Source: a virus
Lineage: Duplodnaviria; Heunggongvirae; Uroviricota; Caudoviricetes
IMG/VR virus record: IMGVR_UViG_3300029705_000018
Direction: 5' to 3' (one strand)
Length of the DNA stretch: 13,979 nt
Shown here: piece after piece, positions 4,862-13,091 of the stretch
How the letters are laid out: each line of letters begins with the position of its first letter
Position numbering within the stretch: position 1 is the stretch's first letter
Translations under genes and position numbers: made by a program
The notes under the pieces: generated by a model
What the model was told of the DNA's origin: nothing
What the model saw: only the letters and a program-made list of their open reading frames with translations
Databases searched by the model: none

Positions 4862-6373
4862 TTAGCCGATAACCTCATAGCGAGGAGAGTCCAACTTCTC
4901 CATCATAAGATCCCAGCCAGTTTTGCCAGAAAGAATCTGTTCAAAAATACTAGGACTCATACCAGAAACATAAGAAATGTCTCTTACTCCAATATCTTCA
5001 GGGATATTGTTCTGTCTTGCCTGAACGTTCCAGTAGATAAGCTTAGGCATACGGTACCCATGACGAGCCCACTTATCTCTAATAGACTCCATCAAGGTCT
5101 GAGGGTTCCAGGATTGACGACCATAACCATGACCAGTTCCTGCATCAAATTCCATATCTGACAGAATTAGAATGTTCTGAGGCAGCTCATCCTGGCCGCA
5201 ACCATTATTCAGAGCGGTCTGCAGCAACATATCGAAGGTGGCTTCGATGTTGGTGCTCTCACACAGGTTGGTGCGGTAGATACGATAGACCTTGTCGCAG
5301 AAGTCTACGCCGCTGGTCTCGATCAGCTGAGGACGAGTGGAGAAAGATACGTAGTGGTTTGCGAAGGGGCCGTTAGCACGCTCGGCGCAGTACAGACCCA
5401 GGGAAATAGCTACGTTCAGAGGAGTTGCGTCACCGCCGTACCAGGTCATGGAAGCGGAGGTATCAACAACAGCCAGACCATTGAAGGACTTGCCGTTGAA
5501 GTAATCCTGCAGGTTCTCCCAGTACTTGTTCACCATCAGACGATCGGTGTTATCGATAGGCAGATGGCAAGCACGCAAAGCCTTGGAAACAACCTCGTAA
5601 GGATACAGAGCCTTGGCGTTAACCTTGGTGGTAGTATCCTTGGCGAAAGCCTCGTAGGTCTTGACCTCGGGATTGCGCTTCATACGCTCAATGTCGTGAC
5701 GAGCAAAGGCGTTCTTGTACTTGATACCGGCCTTAGAAGGGATCTTATCGAACTCGATCTCATCCCAACGACCCTCGGACATCAGACGCTCCAGGACGTT
5801 GATGCGGGCACGCAGAACAGACAGAGTCTTACGGTACTGCTTGGGGGTCATGCCAATGAACTTACGAACCTTGGCAGCAGTCTTCTTAGTCTTCACAGAG
5901 GAAGTGTTCTCAGAAGGCATCCACTTACCCAGCAGAGAAGGGGTCTTACATTGGACGTCCAAAGCCAGCTGATGTTTGACGATGTTCAGTGCGTCAGCCT
6001 CCAGAGGAGTACCGATGAACACGAACAGGTCATCCCATCGACCGAACTCAGGGACGTGAGTCAGGTTACGACGCATAGCGTCAGTATCGTAGGAAGCCAG
6101 CCACTTAGTAGCGACACGGAAGAACCGGCGCTCACCCTGGCCACCGCGCACGTCACGGATGTAGAACAGACACTTCAGAGCGTAAGAAGGATTCTCGTCG
6201 AAAGCCTTCTTAAACAGGAAGATAACATCTTCATCGGTGCGGGTACGGTAGGCCGCACCCATAGCGAACAGGTCCATCAGACCGTCCATGGTAGACTTAT
6301 GAGTCAGGGCACCATTCTCAGTGCGAGTGTAGTTAGAAGCGGACTTCATACCTTCCAGAAAAATATTGCTCAT
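4862..6373 (-). CDS. 503-aa DUF2828-family (TROVE/Ro60-like) protein with a C-terminal vWA domain
   Basis: TENGA, LFYIRDVRGGQGER, PEFGRWDDL and KWMPSE motifs of DUF2828; MIDAS motifs VVDTSASM and ILSDMEFD; SD AGGAG; noticeably higher GC than the flanks; no TAG codons. Confidence 0.8.
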   Translation of the reverse strand: MSNIFLEGMKSASNYTRTENGALTHKSTMDGLMDLFAMGAAYRTRTDEDVIFLFKKAFDENPSYALKCLFYIRDVRGGQGERRFFRVATKWLASYDTDAMRRNLTHVPEFGRWDDLFVFIGTPLEADALNIVKHQLALDVQCKTPSLLGKWMPSENTSSVKTKKTAAKVRKFIGMTPKQYRKTLSVLRARINVLERLMSEGRWDEIEFDKIPSKAGIKYKNAFARHDIERMKRNPEVKTYEAFAKDTTTKVNAKALYPYEVVSKALRACHLPIDNTDRLMVNKYWENLQDYFNGKSFNGLAVVDTSASMTWYGGDATPLNVAISLGLYCAERANGPFANHYVSFSTRPQLIETSGVDFCDKVYRIYRTNLCESTNIEATFDMLLQTALNNGCGQDELPQNILILSDMEFDAGTGHGYGRQSWNPQTLMESIRDKWARHGYRMPKLIYWNVQARQNNIPEDIGVRDISYVSGMSPSIFEQILSGKTGWDLMMEKLDSPRYEVIG

Positions 6374-6460
6374 AATTTAATTCTCCTTTTTCTCATTGAT
6401 TCCTCTTGGACAAGAGGAAAATTTTATTTTGTATTTCTTATCTCTTTACCTTACAAATAT

Positions 6461-6489
6461 ATTATATCATATTTTTTTTGAAAAATCAA
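6461..6489 (-). promoter_or_regulatory. Conserved phage promoter copy
   Basis: TTGATT (6489-6484), 17 nt, TG-A-TATAAT (6466-6461). Confidence 0.8.
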
Positions 6490-6495
6490 ATATGA

Positions 6496-7596
6496 TTACA
6501 TTGCACTGGACTTATCGGTATTGCATCGGCGGCACAGCATCTGACAATTGGACTCAATTGTCTTACCGCCCTTAGACCAGGGAATGATATGATCGGCGTG
6601 CATGGAAGTTCGAGCATAGTGCTTGCCGCAGATGGGGCAATAACCCTTCTGCTTCTCATAAACACGACCCTTAACTGCTTCGGGGAAAGTTCGAATACTC
6701 AAACACTTTTCGTCACCGCTCAGAACGTAGGCATAAACACCCTTTCTCTTGGTGACTTCTTCATCAGCCATCAGCTTGCTGACCATTTCTTCCAGCTCGT
6801 CGGGATCAAGATCTTCTTCACCGAATTCATTATACAACAGACCCCACTGGACACCCTTCATATCTTTACGATAGTTAGGGAAAGTTTCCTTTACCCAGTT
6901 CATTACATTCATAAAATAATCAACCAGGTGTTTTGCATTTTCATCCAGGTGATGCTGAGCCATATACTCAACAATATGTTCTTTACCACCAGAAATCCAA
7001 GTCAAAACAGTCTCCAGAAGATCCTGTCGATTAGGAGTGCCAGTCATATAATCGGCCGCAATCTGAGAAGCGGGGCAGTTGGTCTTAGAGAAAAACTTCT
7101 TTGCAGAAGTAAGCCAAGCGCCAGTAAAGTTGACATTTCTTAGCTCCTGGTCATTCAGCTTTTCGCCGTATGTATTAACGACACGGAACCATTCCATCTG
7201 TTCCTCTTTAGTACCTTCGCAGATATAAACAGATAACTCGTAGTTCAGAAAATCTTCATAACGCTCGGGATAAGTCTTCTTCCAGTTATGGATATACATA
7301 TCCTGGAAGTTAAAACCACCAGTAGCGAAAGAACAAATGGAAAGAGTTCTCTGCTGGCCATCAAGCACCTCAAAGGTACCATCGCAGTTATCGACCCAAT
7401 ACATGGTATTCAAAGGAAAGCCATGCATAACTGTATTGATAACAGCAACCTGTTGATCAGGTTTATAAATGAATTCTCGCTGATACTTAGGGCGTACATT
7501 TAACTTGCCGCCATAAGCTACAACGCCATTCTCTTCGTCATTTTCATATCCTGCAATAATTTCTCGAATAGCAATCTTCTTCTCGGTAATCTTCAT
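6496..7596 (-). CDS. DUF262 (ParB-like, GmrSD-type) plus C-terminal HNH endonuclease
   Basis: PKYQREFIY, VLDGQQRTLS, FRVVNTYGEKLN (DUF262 motifs); CPICG...HADHIIPWSKGGKTIESNCQMLCRRCN (HNH). Start taken at ATG 7596; the track's GTG at 7605 is possible. Confidence 0.85.
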   Translation of the reverse strand: MKITEKKIAIREIIAGYENDEENGVVAYGGKLNVRPKYQREFIYKPDQQVAVINTVMHGFPLNTMYWVDNCDGTFEVLDGQQRTLSICSFATGGFNFQDMYIHNWKKTYPERYEDFLNYELSVYICEGTKEEQMEWFRVVNTYGEKLNDQELRNVNFTGAWLTSAKKFFSKTNCPASQIAADYMTGTPNRQDLLETVLTWISGGKEHIVEYMAQHHLDENAKHLVDYFMNVMNWVKETFPNYRKDMKGVQWGLLYNEFGEEDLDPDELEEMVSKLMADEEVTKRKGVYAYVLSGDEKCLSIRTFPEAVKGRVYEKQKGYCPICGKHYARTSMHADHIIPWSKGGKTIESNCQMLCRRCNTDKSSAM

Positions 7597-7627
7597 CCAT
7601 ATCACCTTTCCTTATCTTTGTATATAT

Positions 7628-7656
7628 ATTATATCATATTTTTTTATAAAAATCAA
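7628..7656 (-). promoter_or_regulatory. Conserved phage promoter copy
   Basis: TTGATT (7656-7651), 17 nt, TG-A-TATAAT (7633-7628). Confidence 0.8.
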
Positions 7657-7691
7657 AAAAGTCCTTTATAATTAAATTATAAAGGACTTTT
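7657..7691 (-). terminator. Inverted repeat/terminator between the methylase and nuclease genes
   Basis: aaaagtcctttataat-taa-attataaaggactttt, a 16-bp perfect inverted repeat. Confidence 0.75.
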
Positions 7692-7694
7692 ATT

Positions 7695-12670: not shown

Positions 12671-12762
12671 AGGCTCTTGATAGTTTGTAGGACTCGAACC
12701 TACTAAAAATTTTGTACAGAAAAAATTTTATTATCCAAGTTTAAGACTTGCTGTAAGAGCCT
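12671..12762 (-). repeat. Stem-CAGCAA motif element, copy B, containing a T arm and tRNA-like loops
   Basis: AGGCTCTT-ACAGCAA ... AAACTTGGATAA ... CT-GTA-CA ... GTAGG-TTCGAGT-CCTAC ... AAGAGCCT. Confidence 0.7.
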
Positions 12763-12790
12763 TTTTTATTTCCTTATCTCTTATGTATAT

Positions 12791-12819
12791 ATTATATCAT
12801 TTTTTTTTATAAAAATCAA
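12791..12819 (-). promoter_or_regulatory. Conserved phage promoter copy
   Basis: TTGATT (12819-12814), 17 nt, TG-A-TATAAT (12796-12791). Confidence 0.8.
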
Positions 12820-12831
12820 TTACGATCTCTT

Positions 12832-12906
12832 TGGCAGCGGCGGTGAGAATCGAACTCACATCCGAGGTTTTAGAGACCCCTGTCCTGACCTTTGAACGAC
12901 ACCGCA
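12832..12906 (-). tRNA. Amber-suppressor tRNA(CTA), Gln-type
   Basis: GGGGT-CT-CTA-AA-ACCTC anticodon arm (anticodon at 12873-12871); U1xU72 mismatch and G73 resemble tRNA-Gln; encoded CCA. Confidence 0.92.
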
Positions 12907-12918
12907 GTATAATAAATC

Positions 12919-13054
12919 AAGACACATCACAAAATCGTTTTACGTTGCTCTACCACTTGAGCTACCCCGCCGTGGAGACGGGGACAGGACTCGAACCTGC
13001 AGCCTACGGGTTGACAGCCTTAAATTTTGAAAAATGTATTGCTGTATGTGCCTT
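12919..13054 (-). repeat. Stem-CAGCAA motif element, copy A, enclosing the permuted tRNA-Asp
   Basis: AAGGCACAT-ACAGCAA...CAAAAT [permuted tRNA] ATTTTG-TG-ATGTGTCTT; the two flanks base-pair (9 bp + 6 bp). Confidence 0.75.
12943..13019 (-). tRNA. Circularly permuted tRNA-Asp(GTC): 3' part (13019-12973), 1-nt spacer, 5' part (12971-12943)
   Basis: GG-CT-GTC-AA-CCCGT-AGGCT-GCAGG-TTCGAGT-CCTGT-CCCCGTC-T-CCA, then C, then GGCGGGG-TA-GCTC-AAGTGGTA-GAGC-A-ACG. Joining ACG to GG restores a perfect ACGGG/CCCGT anticodon stem. Confidence 0.85.
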
Positions 13055-13062
13055 ATGTATTT

Positions 13063-13091
13063 ATTATACTAAAAAAAATTTCAAAAGTCAA
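13063..13091 (-). promoter_or_regulatory. Conserved phage promoter copy driving element A and the suppressor tRNA
   Basis: TTGACT (13091-13086), 17 nt, TATAAT (13068-13063). Confidence 0.75.

What the first reader, a model, noticed from the sequence alone, without database searches (positions are those of the whole stretch)
4862..13091. Candidate system: phage tRNA remodelling/mimicry island
Inference from co-location of: a recoded genome with its suppressor tRNA; three non-canonical tRNA architectures (permuted, anticodon-inserted, deconstructed); a repeated RNA scaffold motif; large ornate RNAs; a TROVE-like RNA-binding protein; and an orphan RelE-like nuclease. The aberrations are concentrated in the anticodon arm, the target of host anti-phage tRNases. 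This suggests decoys, or tRNAs assembled in a nuclease-resistant or repairable way.
Basis: inference. Interest (0 to 1): 0.75.

Follow-up and report, generated by a model that had tools for sequence, protein, structure and literature searches.

The report
Phage Ro60-like protein with CAGCAA-handle RNAs
The odd "tRNAs" in this gut phage are the cargo of small RNAs that share one conserved stem-plus-CAGCAA handle, and this handle travels with a ring-shaped Ro60-like protein gene in very different phages, so the core of the island is most likely an undescribed relative of the Ro60/Y-RNA particle rather than a multi-part anti-nuclease kit.

Summary
The window is the first 14 kb of a 139-kb TAG-recoded gut phage contig with 39 tRNA genes. 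Most listed components exist, but only three form a conserved unit.

The conserved unit:
- The tRNA array.
- A DUF2828/DUF7788 protein. Its model has the Ro60 fold; all 13 best PDB matches are Ro60.
- Small RNAs with a 7-bp closing stem, 3 nt, an invariant CAGCAA and a 3' G. There are 4 in the window and 12 in the genome, against about 0.5 expected by chance.

The "permuted" and "deconstructed" tRNAs are cargo inside this handle.

Evidence that handle and gene belong together:
- The handle lies beside DUF2828, on the same strand, in Felix O1, Listeria P100-like, Bacillus, KVP40, Campylobacter and mycobacterial phages.
- 43 of 49 IMG/VR records found by the RNA pattern alone encode DUF2828.
- T4, T5, Bxz1 and LP65 have tRNAs but neither the gene nor the handle.

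The ParE/RelE-like gene, the GmrSD-HNH gene and the methylase occur in only 1-3 of 80 relatives. The "large ornate RNAs" are not verified beyond a 90-nt OLE-like piece. No RtcB or Rnl gene is on the contig.

Binding is inferred, not shown. I found the handle neither in Rfam 15 nor in the papers I could search. This scan has already reported the same pairing on many other genomes.

The parts
4862..6373 (-). Ro60-like protein gene (503 aa; Pfam DUF2828 + DUF7788, phrog_850 'RNA-binding protein')
   Evidence: Pfam and PHROG matches. AlphaFold2 model pLDDT 93.9. The 13 best PDB matches are all Ro60, Rsr or phage phiLo Ro60, TM 0.4-0.6, probability 1.0. The MIDAS residues D304, S306, S308, T374 and D406 are invariant in 102 homologues.
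6461..6489 (-). Promoter-like site of the Ro60-like gene; a terminator-like hairpin follows the gene at 4824-4853
   Evidence: Consensus scan, 10 of 12 matches with an extended -10; sequence read.
12918..13054 (-). Handle RNA A: 7-bp stem, AUA, CAGCAA, then cargo made of a circularly permuted tRNA-like module (YrlA-like). It starts at the promoter at 13063-13091 and ends 11 nt before the suppressor tRNA.
   Evidence: Rfam YrlA 40.8 bits, E 3e-6.
12669..12763 (-). Handle RNA B: cargo is an A/U hairpin with loop CUGUACA plus a perfect T arm. It ends 7 nt before tRNA-Leu(UAA).
   Evidence: Covariance model R1, built only from other phages, scores 39.6 bits, E 6e-7. Folding z-score -3.3.
11712..11881 (-). 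Handle RNA C (arm GAGAGCC). The 3' partner is ambiguous: GGUUCUC at about 11750 or GGCUCUC at 11713-11719.
   Evidence: z -3.8. RNA-library contigs of two studies cover it.
11557..11651 (-). Handle RNA D (weaker copy: UCCAGCAA, 6-bp stem). A terminator-like hairpin (11529-11554) and tRNA-Lys(UUU) follow.
   Evidence: R1 scores 18.1 bits, E 0.13. Folding z-score -3.0. Terminator-like site.
12832..12906 (-). Suppressor tRNA(CUA), CCA encoded
   Evidence: ARAGORN and Rfam. TAG is read as sense.
9234..13785 (-). Window part of the tRNA array: Cys, Met, Lys(CUU), Lys(UUU), Gly, Leu(UAA), Sup(CUA), Ser(UGA). The array runs on to 27.6 kb of the contig, 39 tRNAs in all.
   Evidence: 36 of 39 encode CCA.
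10523..10670 (-). tRNA-like RNA with acceptor, D and T arms and CCA, but an ~80-nt irregular arm in place of the anticodon arm. It has no CAGCAA handle.
   Evidence: Fold (z -1.3). Not called by ARAGORN or Rfam. A 127-nt RNA-library contig with 3 differences covers it.
11298..11387 (-). 90-nt hairpin matching one sub-domain of OLE RNA (model positions 436-595 with a 74-nt stretch missing)
   Evidence: Rfam 52.9 bits, gathering 50. Fold.
10066..10519 (-). ORF-free, GC-richer stretch (claimed ornate RNA); structure not verified
   Evidence: No Rfam family. Folding z-score -1.4. Conserved in 0-1 of 80 loci. Covered by RNA-library contigs.
10925..11250 (-). Promoter-led ORF-free leader of a 55-aa Cys-rich ORF (claimed multi-stem RNA); structure not verified
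   Evidence: Promoter at 11256-11284. Folding z-score -0.7. No Rfam family.
9777..10043 (-). ParE/RelE-like 88-aa ORF without a neighbouring antitoxin; not a conserved part of the unit
   Evidence: Pfam ParE_toxin 25.1 bits, cut-off 23. Homologue in 1 of 80 related loci.
6496..8885 (-). Inserted cassette between the Ro60-like gene and the tRNA array: GmrSD_N+HNH nuclease (6496-7605) and EcoRI-type adenine methylase (7695-8885); not part of the unit
   Evidence: Pfam. Present in 3 of 80 related loci, with no DNA conservation.

Best explanation
The core of the island is a phage ribonucleoprotein system of the Ro60/Y-RNA kind.

The protein (DUF2828 + DUF7788) is a Ro60-shaped ring of helical repeats with a vWA/MIDAS domain.

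Its probable partners are small RNAs that share a 'handle'. The 5' and 3' ends pair in a 7-bp stem, usually 5'-(A)AGRCNN with NNGYCUU-3'. Three unpaired bases and an invariant unpaired CAGCAA follow on the 5' strand, and a conserved G follows the 3' strand. This has the layout of the Ro-binding module of Y RNAs, a terminal stem beside an internal loop with a short conserved motif (GNCGAA in YrlA).

Between the two halves of the handle lies exchangeable cargo, mostly built from tRNA parts:
- a permuted T-arm/acceptor/D-arm module, as in YrlA;
- a lone T arm;
- anticodon-like hairpins;
- or a whole CCA-less tRNA copy.

In tRNA-rich phages the handle RNAs are transcribed with the tRNAs and typically end 4-9 nt before a tRNA. 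RNase P cleavage at the tRNA 5' end would then release them.

Shown here: the fold of the protein, the RNA family, their genomic coupling, and the presence of these segments in RNA libraries.

Inferred: that the protein binds the handle, and that the cargo presents tRNA-like shapes to tRNA-binding enzymes or nucleases. By analogy, Y RNA tethers Ro60 to PNPase.

The ParE-like gene, the GmrSD-HNH/methylase cassette and the long ORF-free stretches are local passengers.
For: PROTEIN
- Pfam DUF2828 + DUF7788 and phrog_850.
- Model pLDDT 93.9. The 13 best PDB matches are all Ro60 family, full length. MIDAS residues are invariant.

RNA FAMILY
- 12 copies on one strand, inside the tRNA region only, against about 1 on both strands of shuffled genomes.
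- 218 copies on the gene strand against 6 on the other strand in 80 related loci.
- 240 of 303 candidates picked by sequence alone have a complementary 3' arm, against 16-29 in controls. 219 of the 240 arms are followed by G.
- A covariance model built from other phages finds copies here and in KVP40, Campylobacter and mycobacterial phages.

COUPLING
- Handles lie beside DUF2828 on the same strand in Bacillus Thrax1, Listeria VAfA18, Felix O1, and in Wigglewiggle, KVP40 and Campylobacter F365.
- 43 of 49 IMG/VR records found by RNA pattern alone encode DUF2828, and 17 of 18 records that are at least 90% complete.
- In 66 pattern-found loci that hold the gene, the strand agrees 68:0 and the median distance is 107 nt. 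Protein identity to ours is only 33-64%.
- T4, T5, Bxz1 and LP65 have neither the gene nor the handle.

tRNA LINK
- 98 of 221 handles end 3-14 nt before a same-strand tRNA, and 11 enclose a tRNA.
- The two tRNAs enclosed in this genome lack CCA, while 36 of 39 tRNAs encode it.
- 80 of 193 cargo stretches carry a T-loop motif.

EXPRESSION HINT
- Gut and bovine metatranscriptome contigs from two studies cover 10.2-13.0 kb. Contig depths there are far above those of the Ro60-like gene's contigs.

LITERATURE
- Y RNAs are a terminal stem plus a loop motif plus a tRNA-like domain (PMC4201824, PMC12135203).
- In Listeria phage CKA15, the gene the authors matched to Rsr lies downstream of the tRNA region, and abundant unannotated RNAs are made near the tRNA genes. 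The authors guessed these might be Y RNAs (PMC12282133).
Against: - No binding experiment exists, and RNA-protein docking was not available here.
- The handle motif CAGCAA differs from the GNCGAA/CGAA motif of known Y RNAs. Pfam's TROVE model was not among the hits for the protein.
- In this phage the nearest handle is 5.2 kb from the gene, because a cassette is inserted between them.
- Many handles sit exactly in front of tRNAs, which would also fit a pure processing signal.
- The related loci are not phylogenetically independent, so the raw counts overstate the number of independent events.
- The RNA-library data are contigs from relatives. They cannot prove transcription or show RNA ends, and DNA carry-over cannot be excluded.
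Confidence: 0.7

Rival explanations
1. The island is an anti-defence kit in which tRNA-like RNAs act as decoys for host anticodon nucleases, or as nuclease-resistant or repairable tRNAs. The Ro-like protein, the RelE-like nuclease and the large RNAs would be cooperating parts. This can coexist with the Ro/Y reading as the purpose of the cargo.
For: - Cargo is enriched in anticodon-like hairpins: about 52 of 193 beyond T loops, against about 11 of any kind in shuffles. UUU (Lys) is the commonest, with GUA, GUU, GGU and GCU also seen.
- T arms are present in 41% of cargo stretches.
- Established knowledge: phage tRNA genes can counter tRNA-cleaving defences, and Lys(UUU) and Tyr tRNAs are known targets.
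- In Listeria phage VAfA18, a gene annotated as tRNA splicing ligase, a second ligase and a phosphoesterase lie 1-7 kb downstream of DUF2828.
Against: - The ParE-like gene occurs in 1 of 80 relatives; GmrSD-HNH and the methylase in 3 of 80.
- No RtcB or Rnl gene is on this contig (the contig is 67% complete, so this is inconclusive).
- Many cargo stretches have no anticodon mimic.
- Handles stand beside DUF2828 in a mycobacteriophage stretch with no annotated tRNA genes.
- No defence or counter-defence assay exists.
Confidence: 0.15
2. The stem+CAGCAA element is a cis-acting signal of tRNA operons that works without the Ro-like protein. It could be a leader that guides RNase P, III or E processing, an insulator that keeps neighbouring tRNAs from misfolding, or an antitermination site.
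For: - 98 of 221 handles end 3-14 nt before a tRNA.
- Several start at or just after strong promoters.
- One precedes ROOL RNA by about 65 nt.
Against: - It is absent from the tRNA-rich phages T4, T5, Bxz1 and LP65, which lack DUF2828.
- It occurs in tandem beside DUF2828 where no tRNA follows: Wigglewiggle, Listeria VAfA18 and Campylobacter F365.
- Median distance to the gene is 107 nt and the strand agrees 68:0.
- CAGCAA is invariant across hosts from Mycobacterium to Campylobacter, whose processing enzymes differ.
Confidence: 0.1
3. The element is only an autoregulatory operator in the mRNA of the DUF2828 gene. The protein would bind its own leader or trailer, and the copies elsewhere would be by-products.
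For: Most copies found by pattern lie within about 100 nt of the gene, on the same strand.
Against: - 12 copies lie 5-17 kb from the gene in this genome, and none lies in its own 90-nt leader.
- Copies lie upstream in some phages and downstream in others.
- Cargo is diverse and tRNA-like.
Confidence: 0.05

Closest known systems
Ro60 (Rsr/TROVE) with Y RNAs, especially bacterial and phage YrlA (Rfam RF02553; Chen et al. 2014, PMC4201824) and Thermus phage phiLo Ro60 with Yrl1/Yrl2 (PMC12135203)
   Same: - Ring-plus-vWA protein fold.
- RNA genes on the same strand near the protein gene.
- RNAs closed by a 5'/3' stem next to a loop with a short conserved motif.
- A tRNA-like module in some RNAs; handle RNA A matches YrlA at E 3e-6.
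   Different: - The protein belongs to Pfam DUF2828/DUF7788, not TROVE, with 10-15% identity to solved Ro60s.
- The motif is CAGCAA, not GNCGAA/CGAA.
- Up to 12 or more copies per genome, with interchangeable cargo.
- Many copies are 5' leaders of tRNA genes.
- No binding or PNPase link has been shown.
Abundant unannotated RNAs near the tRNA genes of Listeria phage CKA15 and its Rsr-like protein CKA15_055 (PMC12282133)
   Same: - The related P100-like phage VAfA18 carries a DUF2828 gene with three handle RNAs just upstream.
- For CKA15 the authors report strong transcription from unannotated regions near the tRNA genes and suggest Y RNAs.
   Different: - The paper defines no motif or family.
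- I did not map its transcripts onto the handles.
- It reports the protein in purified virions, which cannot be judged here.
Class I RNAs of dictyostelid social amoebae (PMC7919456)
   Same: - About 60 nt long.
[quoted passage not shown]
- The RNAs start AAG and end CUGU.
- An unpaired 11-nt motif beside the 5' stem has invariant C at positions 6 and 9 and AA at 10-11, the spacing of CAGCAA.
- The remainder is variable.
   Different: - They are eukaryotic and polymerase-specific, and the known binder is an RRM protein (Rnp1A/Cibp).
- No DUF2828 link is reported.
- The paper's text does not print the motif, so letter-by-letter identity was not tested here.
- This lead came from earlier notes of this scan.
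ROOL and OLE large RNAs (Rfam RF03087, RF01071)
   Same: A full ROOL RNA (323 bits) lies in the same tRNA array, about 65 nt after a handle RNA. A 90-nt piece at 11298-11387 matches one OLE sub-domain.
   Different: ROOL is outside the window. The OLE match covers about a quarter of the model with a 74-nt stretch missing, so it is not an OLE RNA. The two long ORF-free stretches in the window match no family.

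Membership tests
Ro60 / TROVE protein family | Ring of helical (HEAT-like) repeats followed by a vWA domain | tested here: met
   Model pLDDT 93.9. The 13 best PDB matches are all Ro60, Rsr or phiLo Ro60 over the full length, TM 0.4-0.6, probability 1.0.
Ro60 / TROVE protein family | MIDAS motif (DxSxS ... T ... D) in the vWA domain | tested here: met
   D304, S306, S308, T374 and D406 are invariant in 102 homologues.
Ro60 / TROVE protein family | Sequence membership in Pfam TROVE (PF05731) | tested here: not met
   Pfam hits at E <= 0.01 are DUF2828, DUF7788 and a weak HTH_AraC match only. 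No PDB sequence match at E <= 1.
Ro60 / TROVE protein family | Binds Y RNA on its outer surface and RNA 3' ends in its central hole | not testable with these tools
   Needs biochemistry or a structure of the complex.
YrlA Y RNA (Rfam RF02553) | Reaches the family's gathering score | tested here: not met
   40.8 bits against 69 for 12920-13027. The other handle RNAs give no match.
YrlA Y RNA (Rfam RF02553) | tRNA-like module: T arm, acceptor-like stem and D arm | tested here: met
   Met for handle RNA A only. The other handle RNAs in the window carry other cargo.
YrlA Y RNA (Rfam RF02553) | GNCGAA(N)G motif near the 5' end | tested here: not met
   The invariant motif is CAGCAA.
YrlA Y RNA (Rfam RF02553) | Encoded within about 4 kb of the Ro60 gene on the same strand | tested here: inconclusive
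   Same strand always. Here the distance is 5.2-17 kb because of an inserted cassette. In other phages the median is 107 nt.
OLE RNA (Rfam RF01071) | Full-length ~600-nt architecture | tested here: not met
   Only model positions 436-595 match, with 74 nt missing, over 90 nt in all. The score of 52.9 just passes the gathering score of 50.
RelE/ParE toxin | Pfam ParE_toxin above the cut-off | tested here: met
   25.1 bits against 23, E 2.6e-5; marginal.
RelE/ParE toxin | Adjacent antitoxin gene | tested here: not met
   No ORF upstream, only the 454-nt ORF-free stretch. tRNA-Met lies directly downstream.
TAG-to-Gln recoded phage with its own suppressor tRNA | In-frame TAG at conserved positions plus a tRNA(CUA) gene | tested here: met
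   At two aligned TAG positions Q is the commonest sense residue in relatives, and many relatives also carry TAG. A homology match runs through TAGs. tRNA(CUA).
Dictyostelid Class I RNA | Short terminal stem, start AAG, end CUGU, 11-nt motif with T, C, C, A, A at positions 3, 6, 9, 10, 11 | tested here: inconclusive
   The phage logo fits the stem, AAG, C..CAA and CUUG(U). Position 3 is mostly A here. The Dictyostelium motif's letters are not in the paper's text, and no sequence comparison was made.

The most novel reading that the evidence does not exclude
The CAGCAA handle is a universal docking tag for a DUF2828 branch of Ro60. It lets phages display a changeable library of tRNA parts (anticodon loops, T arms, permuted or CCA-less tRNAs) on a protein ring. 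It also tags their own pre-tRNAs and ROOL RNA for that ring. This would couple tRNA supply, RNA quality control and interception of host tRNA-directed nucleases in one particle. The orphan Class I RNAs of social amoebae would be the eukaryotic members of the same RNA family.
Probability: 0.2. Interest if true: 0.85.

Novelty: new variant of a known kind. Interest (0 to 1): 0.7.

Why it matters
DUF2828 proteins are common. At least 8,000 clusters of similar proteins turned up in one search, and 710 cultured phage genomes carry the gene. These include Felix O1, P100-type Listeria phages (studied as biocontrol agents; PMC12282133), KVP40 and Campylobacter phages. Their RNA partners have not been defined.

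A precise handle motif makes several open questions directly testable in laboratory phages:
- What does a phage Ro60-like particle do?
- Why do tRNA arrays carry so many non-tRNA small RNAs?
- Do tRNA mimics serve in the contest with tRNA-cleaving defences?

The finding also explains most "aberrant tRNAs" in such arrays as cargo, which improves phage annotation.

Tried and rejected
- Megablast of the region against cultured phages found only tRNA-sized matches.
- A sequence search of the protein against PDB found nothing at E <= 1. Only the fold search showed Ro60.
- A first scan that required a contiguous 8-bp stem missed most copies. It was replaced by a 7-bp stem with a 3-nt gap.
- The pair counts on alignment A2 are circular, because the rows were chosen for pairing. 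I do not use them as evidence and rely instead.
- The stop-to-stop frame length test for recoding was not decisive, because reading TAA as sense also lengthens frames.
- The suppressor tRNA is not clearly derived from this phage's tRNA-Gln genes by simple identity.
- ARAGORN with introns does not call the interrupted tRNA-like RNA.
- Folding energies give no support for the two long ORF-free stretches.
- DNA conservation of the intergenic RNAs among the 80 loci is very low, so no covariation test of them was possible.
- RtcB, RNA_ligase and RNA_lig_T4_1 were not found on the contig. The last of these also gave no hit in the 14 control genomes, and the contig is only 67% complete.
- Parts of the window have no cover in the RNA libraries, for example 6525-7456 and 7923-8388. 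These stretches are also missing from relatives, so this says nothing about expression.
- Paper searches for DUF2828, for 'Ro-like RNA binding protein' and for CAGCAA with Y RNA gave no description of the handle.

Full report
CONTEXT
The window is bases 1-13975 of a 138.8-kb IMG/VR phage contig estimated 67% complete. All genes discussed lie on the minus strand. ARAGORN finds 8 tRNA genes in the window and 39 in the contig, all on one strand between 9.2 and 27.6 kb. One is tRNA(CUA).

TAG is read as sense. A PHROG homing-endonuclease match runs through two in-frame TAGs. At two TAG positions that align with relatives, the commonest sense residue is Q, and many relatives also carry TAG there.

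WHAT THE LISTED COMPONENTS ARE
- The 503-aa protein at 4862-6373 carries Pfam DUF2828 and DUF7788 and matches phrog_850, 'RNA-binding protein'.
- It has its own promoter-like site and a terminator-like hairpin.
- Between it and the tRNA array lie a GmrSD_N+HNH nuclease and an EcoRI-type methylase.
- An 88-aa ORF at 9777-10043 marginally matches ParE_toxin.
- Rfam finds the tRNAs, a sub-threshold YrlA match at 12920-13027 and a local OLE match at 11298-11387.

THE PROTEIN HAS THE Ro60 FOLD
Sequence search against PDB found nothing. With an alignment of 102 diverse homologues, AlphaFold2 gave a model of pLDDT 93.9.

The 13 best Foldseek matches in PDB are all Ro60: Xenopus, human, Deinococcus Rsr and Thermus phage phiLo. 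They align over the full length, with TM 0.4-0.6 and 10-15% identity. Only isolated vWA domains follow. The MIDAS residues are invariant.

So the 'TROVE-like' call is right at the level of fold. At the level of sequence family it is DUF2828, not TROVE.

THE REPEATED MOTIF IS A REAL RNA FAMILY
Reading the minus strand and listing CAGCAA sites showed 12 elements at 11.6-23.3 kb with a common plan. A 7-nt arm, usually (A/U)AGRCNN, is followed by three bases and CAGCAA. A variable stretch comes next, then the complementary arm, then G. Shuffled genomes give about 1 such hit on both strands together.

In 80 loci fetched through relatives of the protein (57-88% identity), the same scan gives 218 hits on the gene strand and 6 on the other.

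Those scans require pairing, so I made an unbiased test. Of 303 candidates chosen by sequence alone, 240 have a complementary arm within 300 nt. Shuffled and reversed arms give 16 and 29. Of the 240 arms, 219 are followed by G.

The logo shows invariant CAGCAA, a U-rich stretch after it and an A-rich stretch before the 3' arm. The arm sequence varies while pairing is kept.

A covariance model built only from other phages finds copies in this genome, for example 12666-12766 at E 6e-7. It also finds copies in three phages not used to build it.

MFE folds leave CAGCAA unpaired beside the closing stem in three of the four window copies.

THE 'ABERRANT tRNAs' ARE CARGO
- Handle RNA A (12918-13054) carries a T arm, an acceptor stem ending CCA and a D arm in permuted order. 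This is the YrlA architecture.
- Handle RNA B (12669-12763) carries a T arm and an A/U hairpin.
- Elsewhere in the genome, two handles enclose whole tRNA-shaped genes, Gly-UCC and Ile-GAU. Both are second copies and both lack CCA, whereas 36 of 39 tRNAs encode it.
- Over 193 distinct elements, 80 cargo stretches have a T-loop motif. About 52 have another anticodon-like hairpin (UUU is the commonest), against about 11 of any kind in shuffles (examples).
- The interrupted tRNA-like RNA at 10523-10670 has no handle. It folds as a cloverleaf with an ~80-nt arm, but no program calls it.

COUPLING TO THE Ro60-LIKE GENE
tblastn finds DUF2828 homologues in 710 cultured phage records. In each of the six lineages I opened, handles lie beside the gene on the same strand.

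| Phage | Handles | Position |
|---|---|---|
| Bacillus Thrax1 | 5 | three lie between the last tRNA and the gene |
| Listeria VAfA18 (P100-like) | 3 | in tandem just upstream |
| Felix O1 | 4 | just downstream, among the tRNAs |
| Mycobacterium Wigglewiggle | 3 | in the 370-nt gap after the gene; no tRNA annotated in the 17-kb stretch |
| KVP40 | 4-5 | in the tRNA array upstream |
| Campylobacter F365 | 2 | between tRNA-Met and the gene |

The reverse test also holds. A pattern for one handle variant found more than 113 IMG/VR stretches.
- Of 49 records searched, 43 encode DUF2828, and 17 of the 18 that are at least 90% complete.
- In 66 stretches that include the gene, the handle is on the same strand 68:0, at a median of 107 nt.
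- Those proteins are only 33-64% identical to ours.

Four tRNA-rich phages without DUF2828 (T4, T5, Bxz1, LP65) have no handle. Felix O1, as positive control, has both.

The link is therefore to the protein, not to tRNA arrays as such.

LINK TO tRNA GENES
All 756 tRNAs in the loci lie on the gene strand. 98 of 221 handles end 3-14 nt (mostly 4-9 nt) before a tRNA, most often the suppressor, Leu-UAA or Gln-UUG.

In this window A precedes the suppressor tRNA and B precedes tRNA-Leu. D is followed by a terminator-like hairpin and then tRNA-Lys. One handle lies about 65 nt before a full ROOL RNA at contig 16,959-17,584.

EXPRESSION
Metatranscriptome contigs from two studies (gut and bovine) cover 10.2-13.0 kb. 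For example, contigs of 221 and 202 nt with 2 and 7 differences lie over handles C and D, at depths of about 2,100-2,300. Contigs over the Ro60-like gene in the same run have depths of 57-100.

These are contigs from relatives, and DNA carry-over cannot be excluded. I count this as a hint only.

For Listeria phage CKA15, a published study reports very abundant unannotated transcripts near the tRNA genes and speculates that they are Y RNAs. It also detects its Rsr-like protein in virions (PMC12282133).

WHAT IS NOT PART OF THE UNIT
- The ParE-like gene has a homologue in 1 of 80 related loci.
- GmrSD-HNH and the methylase each have one in 3 of 80.
- Their DNA is not conserved.
- No RtcB or Rnl family was found on the contig (inconclusive, since the contig is incomplete).
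- The two long ORF-free stretches have no family, no significant folding energy and no conservation.

COMPARISON WITH WHAT IS KNOWN
Y RNAs of bacteria and phages are closed by a 5'/3' stem beside a loop with GNCGAA or CGAA. They often carry a tRNA-like domain and are encoded next to Ro60 (PMC4201824, PMC12135203). The present RNAs share the plan but differ in four ways: another motif, another protein family, many copies, and a leader position before tRNAs.

The handle matches no Rfam 15 family. I found no paper that describes it, though subscription journals are not covered.

Earlier notes of this scan report the same pairing on many other genomes and point to dictyostelid Class I RNAs. The published description of those RNAs fits the handle: a terminal stem, a start of AAG, an end of CUGU, and an 11-nt motif with C..CAA. 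I could not compare sequences.

VERDICT
The best reading is a Ro60/Y-RNA-like particle of a DUF2828 branch with CAGCAA-handle RNAs. Binding and function are inferred.

Noticed in passing
contig 16,959-17,584 (locus L202:3060-3685, minus strand), outside the window: Full-length ROOL RNA (Rfam 323 bits) in the same tRNA array. A CAGCAA handle RNA with its own promoter ends about 65 nt before it.
   Followed up: partly
window 11298-11387 (-): A 90-nt hairpin directly after tRNA-Lys(UUU) matches one sub-domain of OLE RNA above Rfam's gathering score, with conserved internal-loop strands GGACUAAGUGG and GACCUAAGCC. It may be a shared RNA building block rather than an OLE relative.
   Followed up: partly
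window 9777-9779 and 9693-9769: The ParE-like ORF ends in TAG, 8 nt before tRNA-Met. If TAG were read as Gln here, the frame would run on through the tRNA gene. So this gene either uses TAG as a stop or is read through.
   Followed up: no
window 12196-12495, 13263-13586 and 13081-13263 (-): Small, very basic ORFs (99, 107 and 60 aa; no Pfam or PHROG match) inside the tRNA array have homologues in 29, 23 and 13 of 80 related arrays. They are better conserved than the larger accessory genes.
   Followed up: partly
window 5001-6000 against its flanks: The Ro60-like gene has about 51% G+C, against 28-40% in the neighbouring coding regions.
   Followed up: no
locus L202:10565-10600 (-), contig about 24,464-24,499: Rfam match to the DUF3800-XI RNA motif (47.6 bits, gathering 37.8) inside the tRNA array.
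   Followed up: no
window 2127-2603 (-): A 158-aa ORF with an Mtd_N domain (major tropism determinant N-terminal domain, E 7e-14). This hints at a diversity-generating retroelement target or a receptor-binding protein nearby.
   Followed up: no
loci L023:4085-4278, L008:7272-7420, L040:9261-9383: Rfam's tRNA model spans 123-194 nt in related phages. Interrupted or insert-bearing tRNA-like genes therefore recur in these arrays.
   Followed up: no
Listeria phage CKA15 (PMC12282133): The paper detects CKA15_055, a protein the authors match to Rsr by HHpred, in purified virions (20 peptides, 57% coverage). The Ro60-like protein may therefore be packaged.
   Followed up: no
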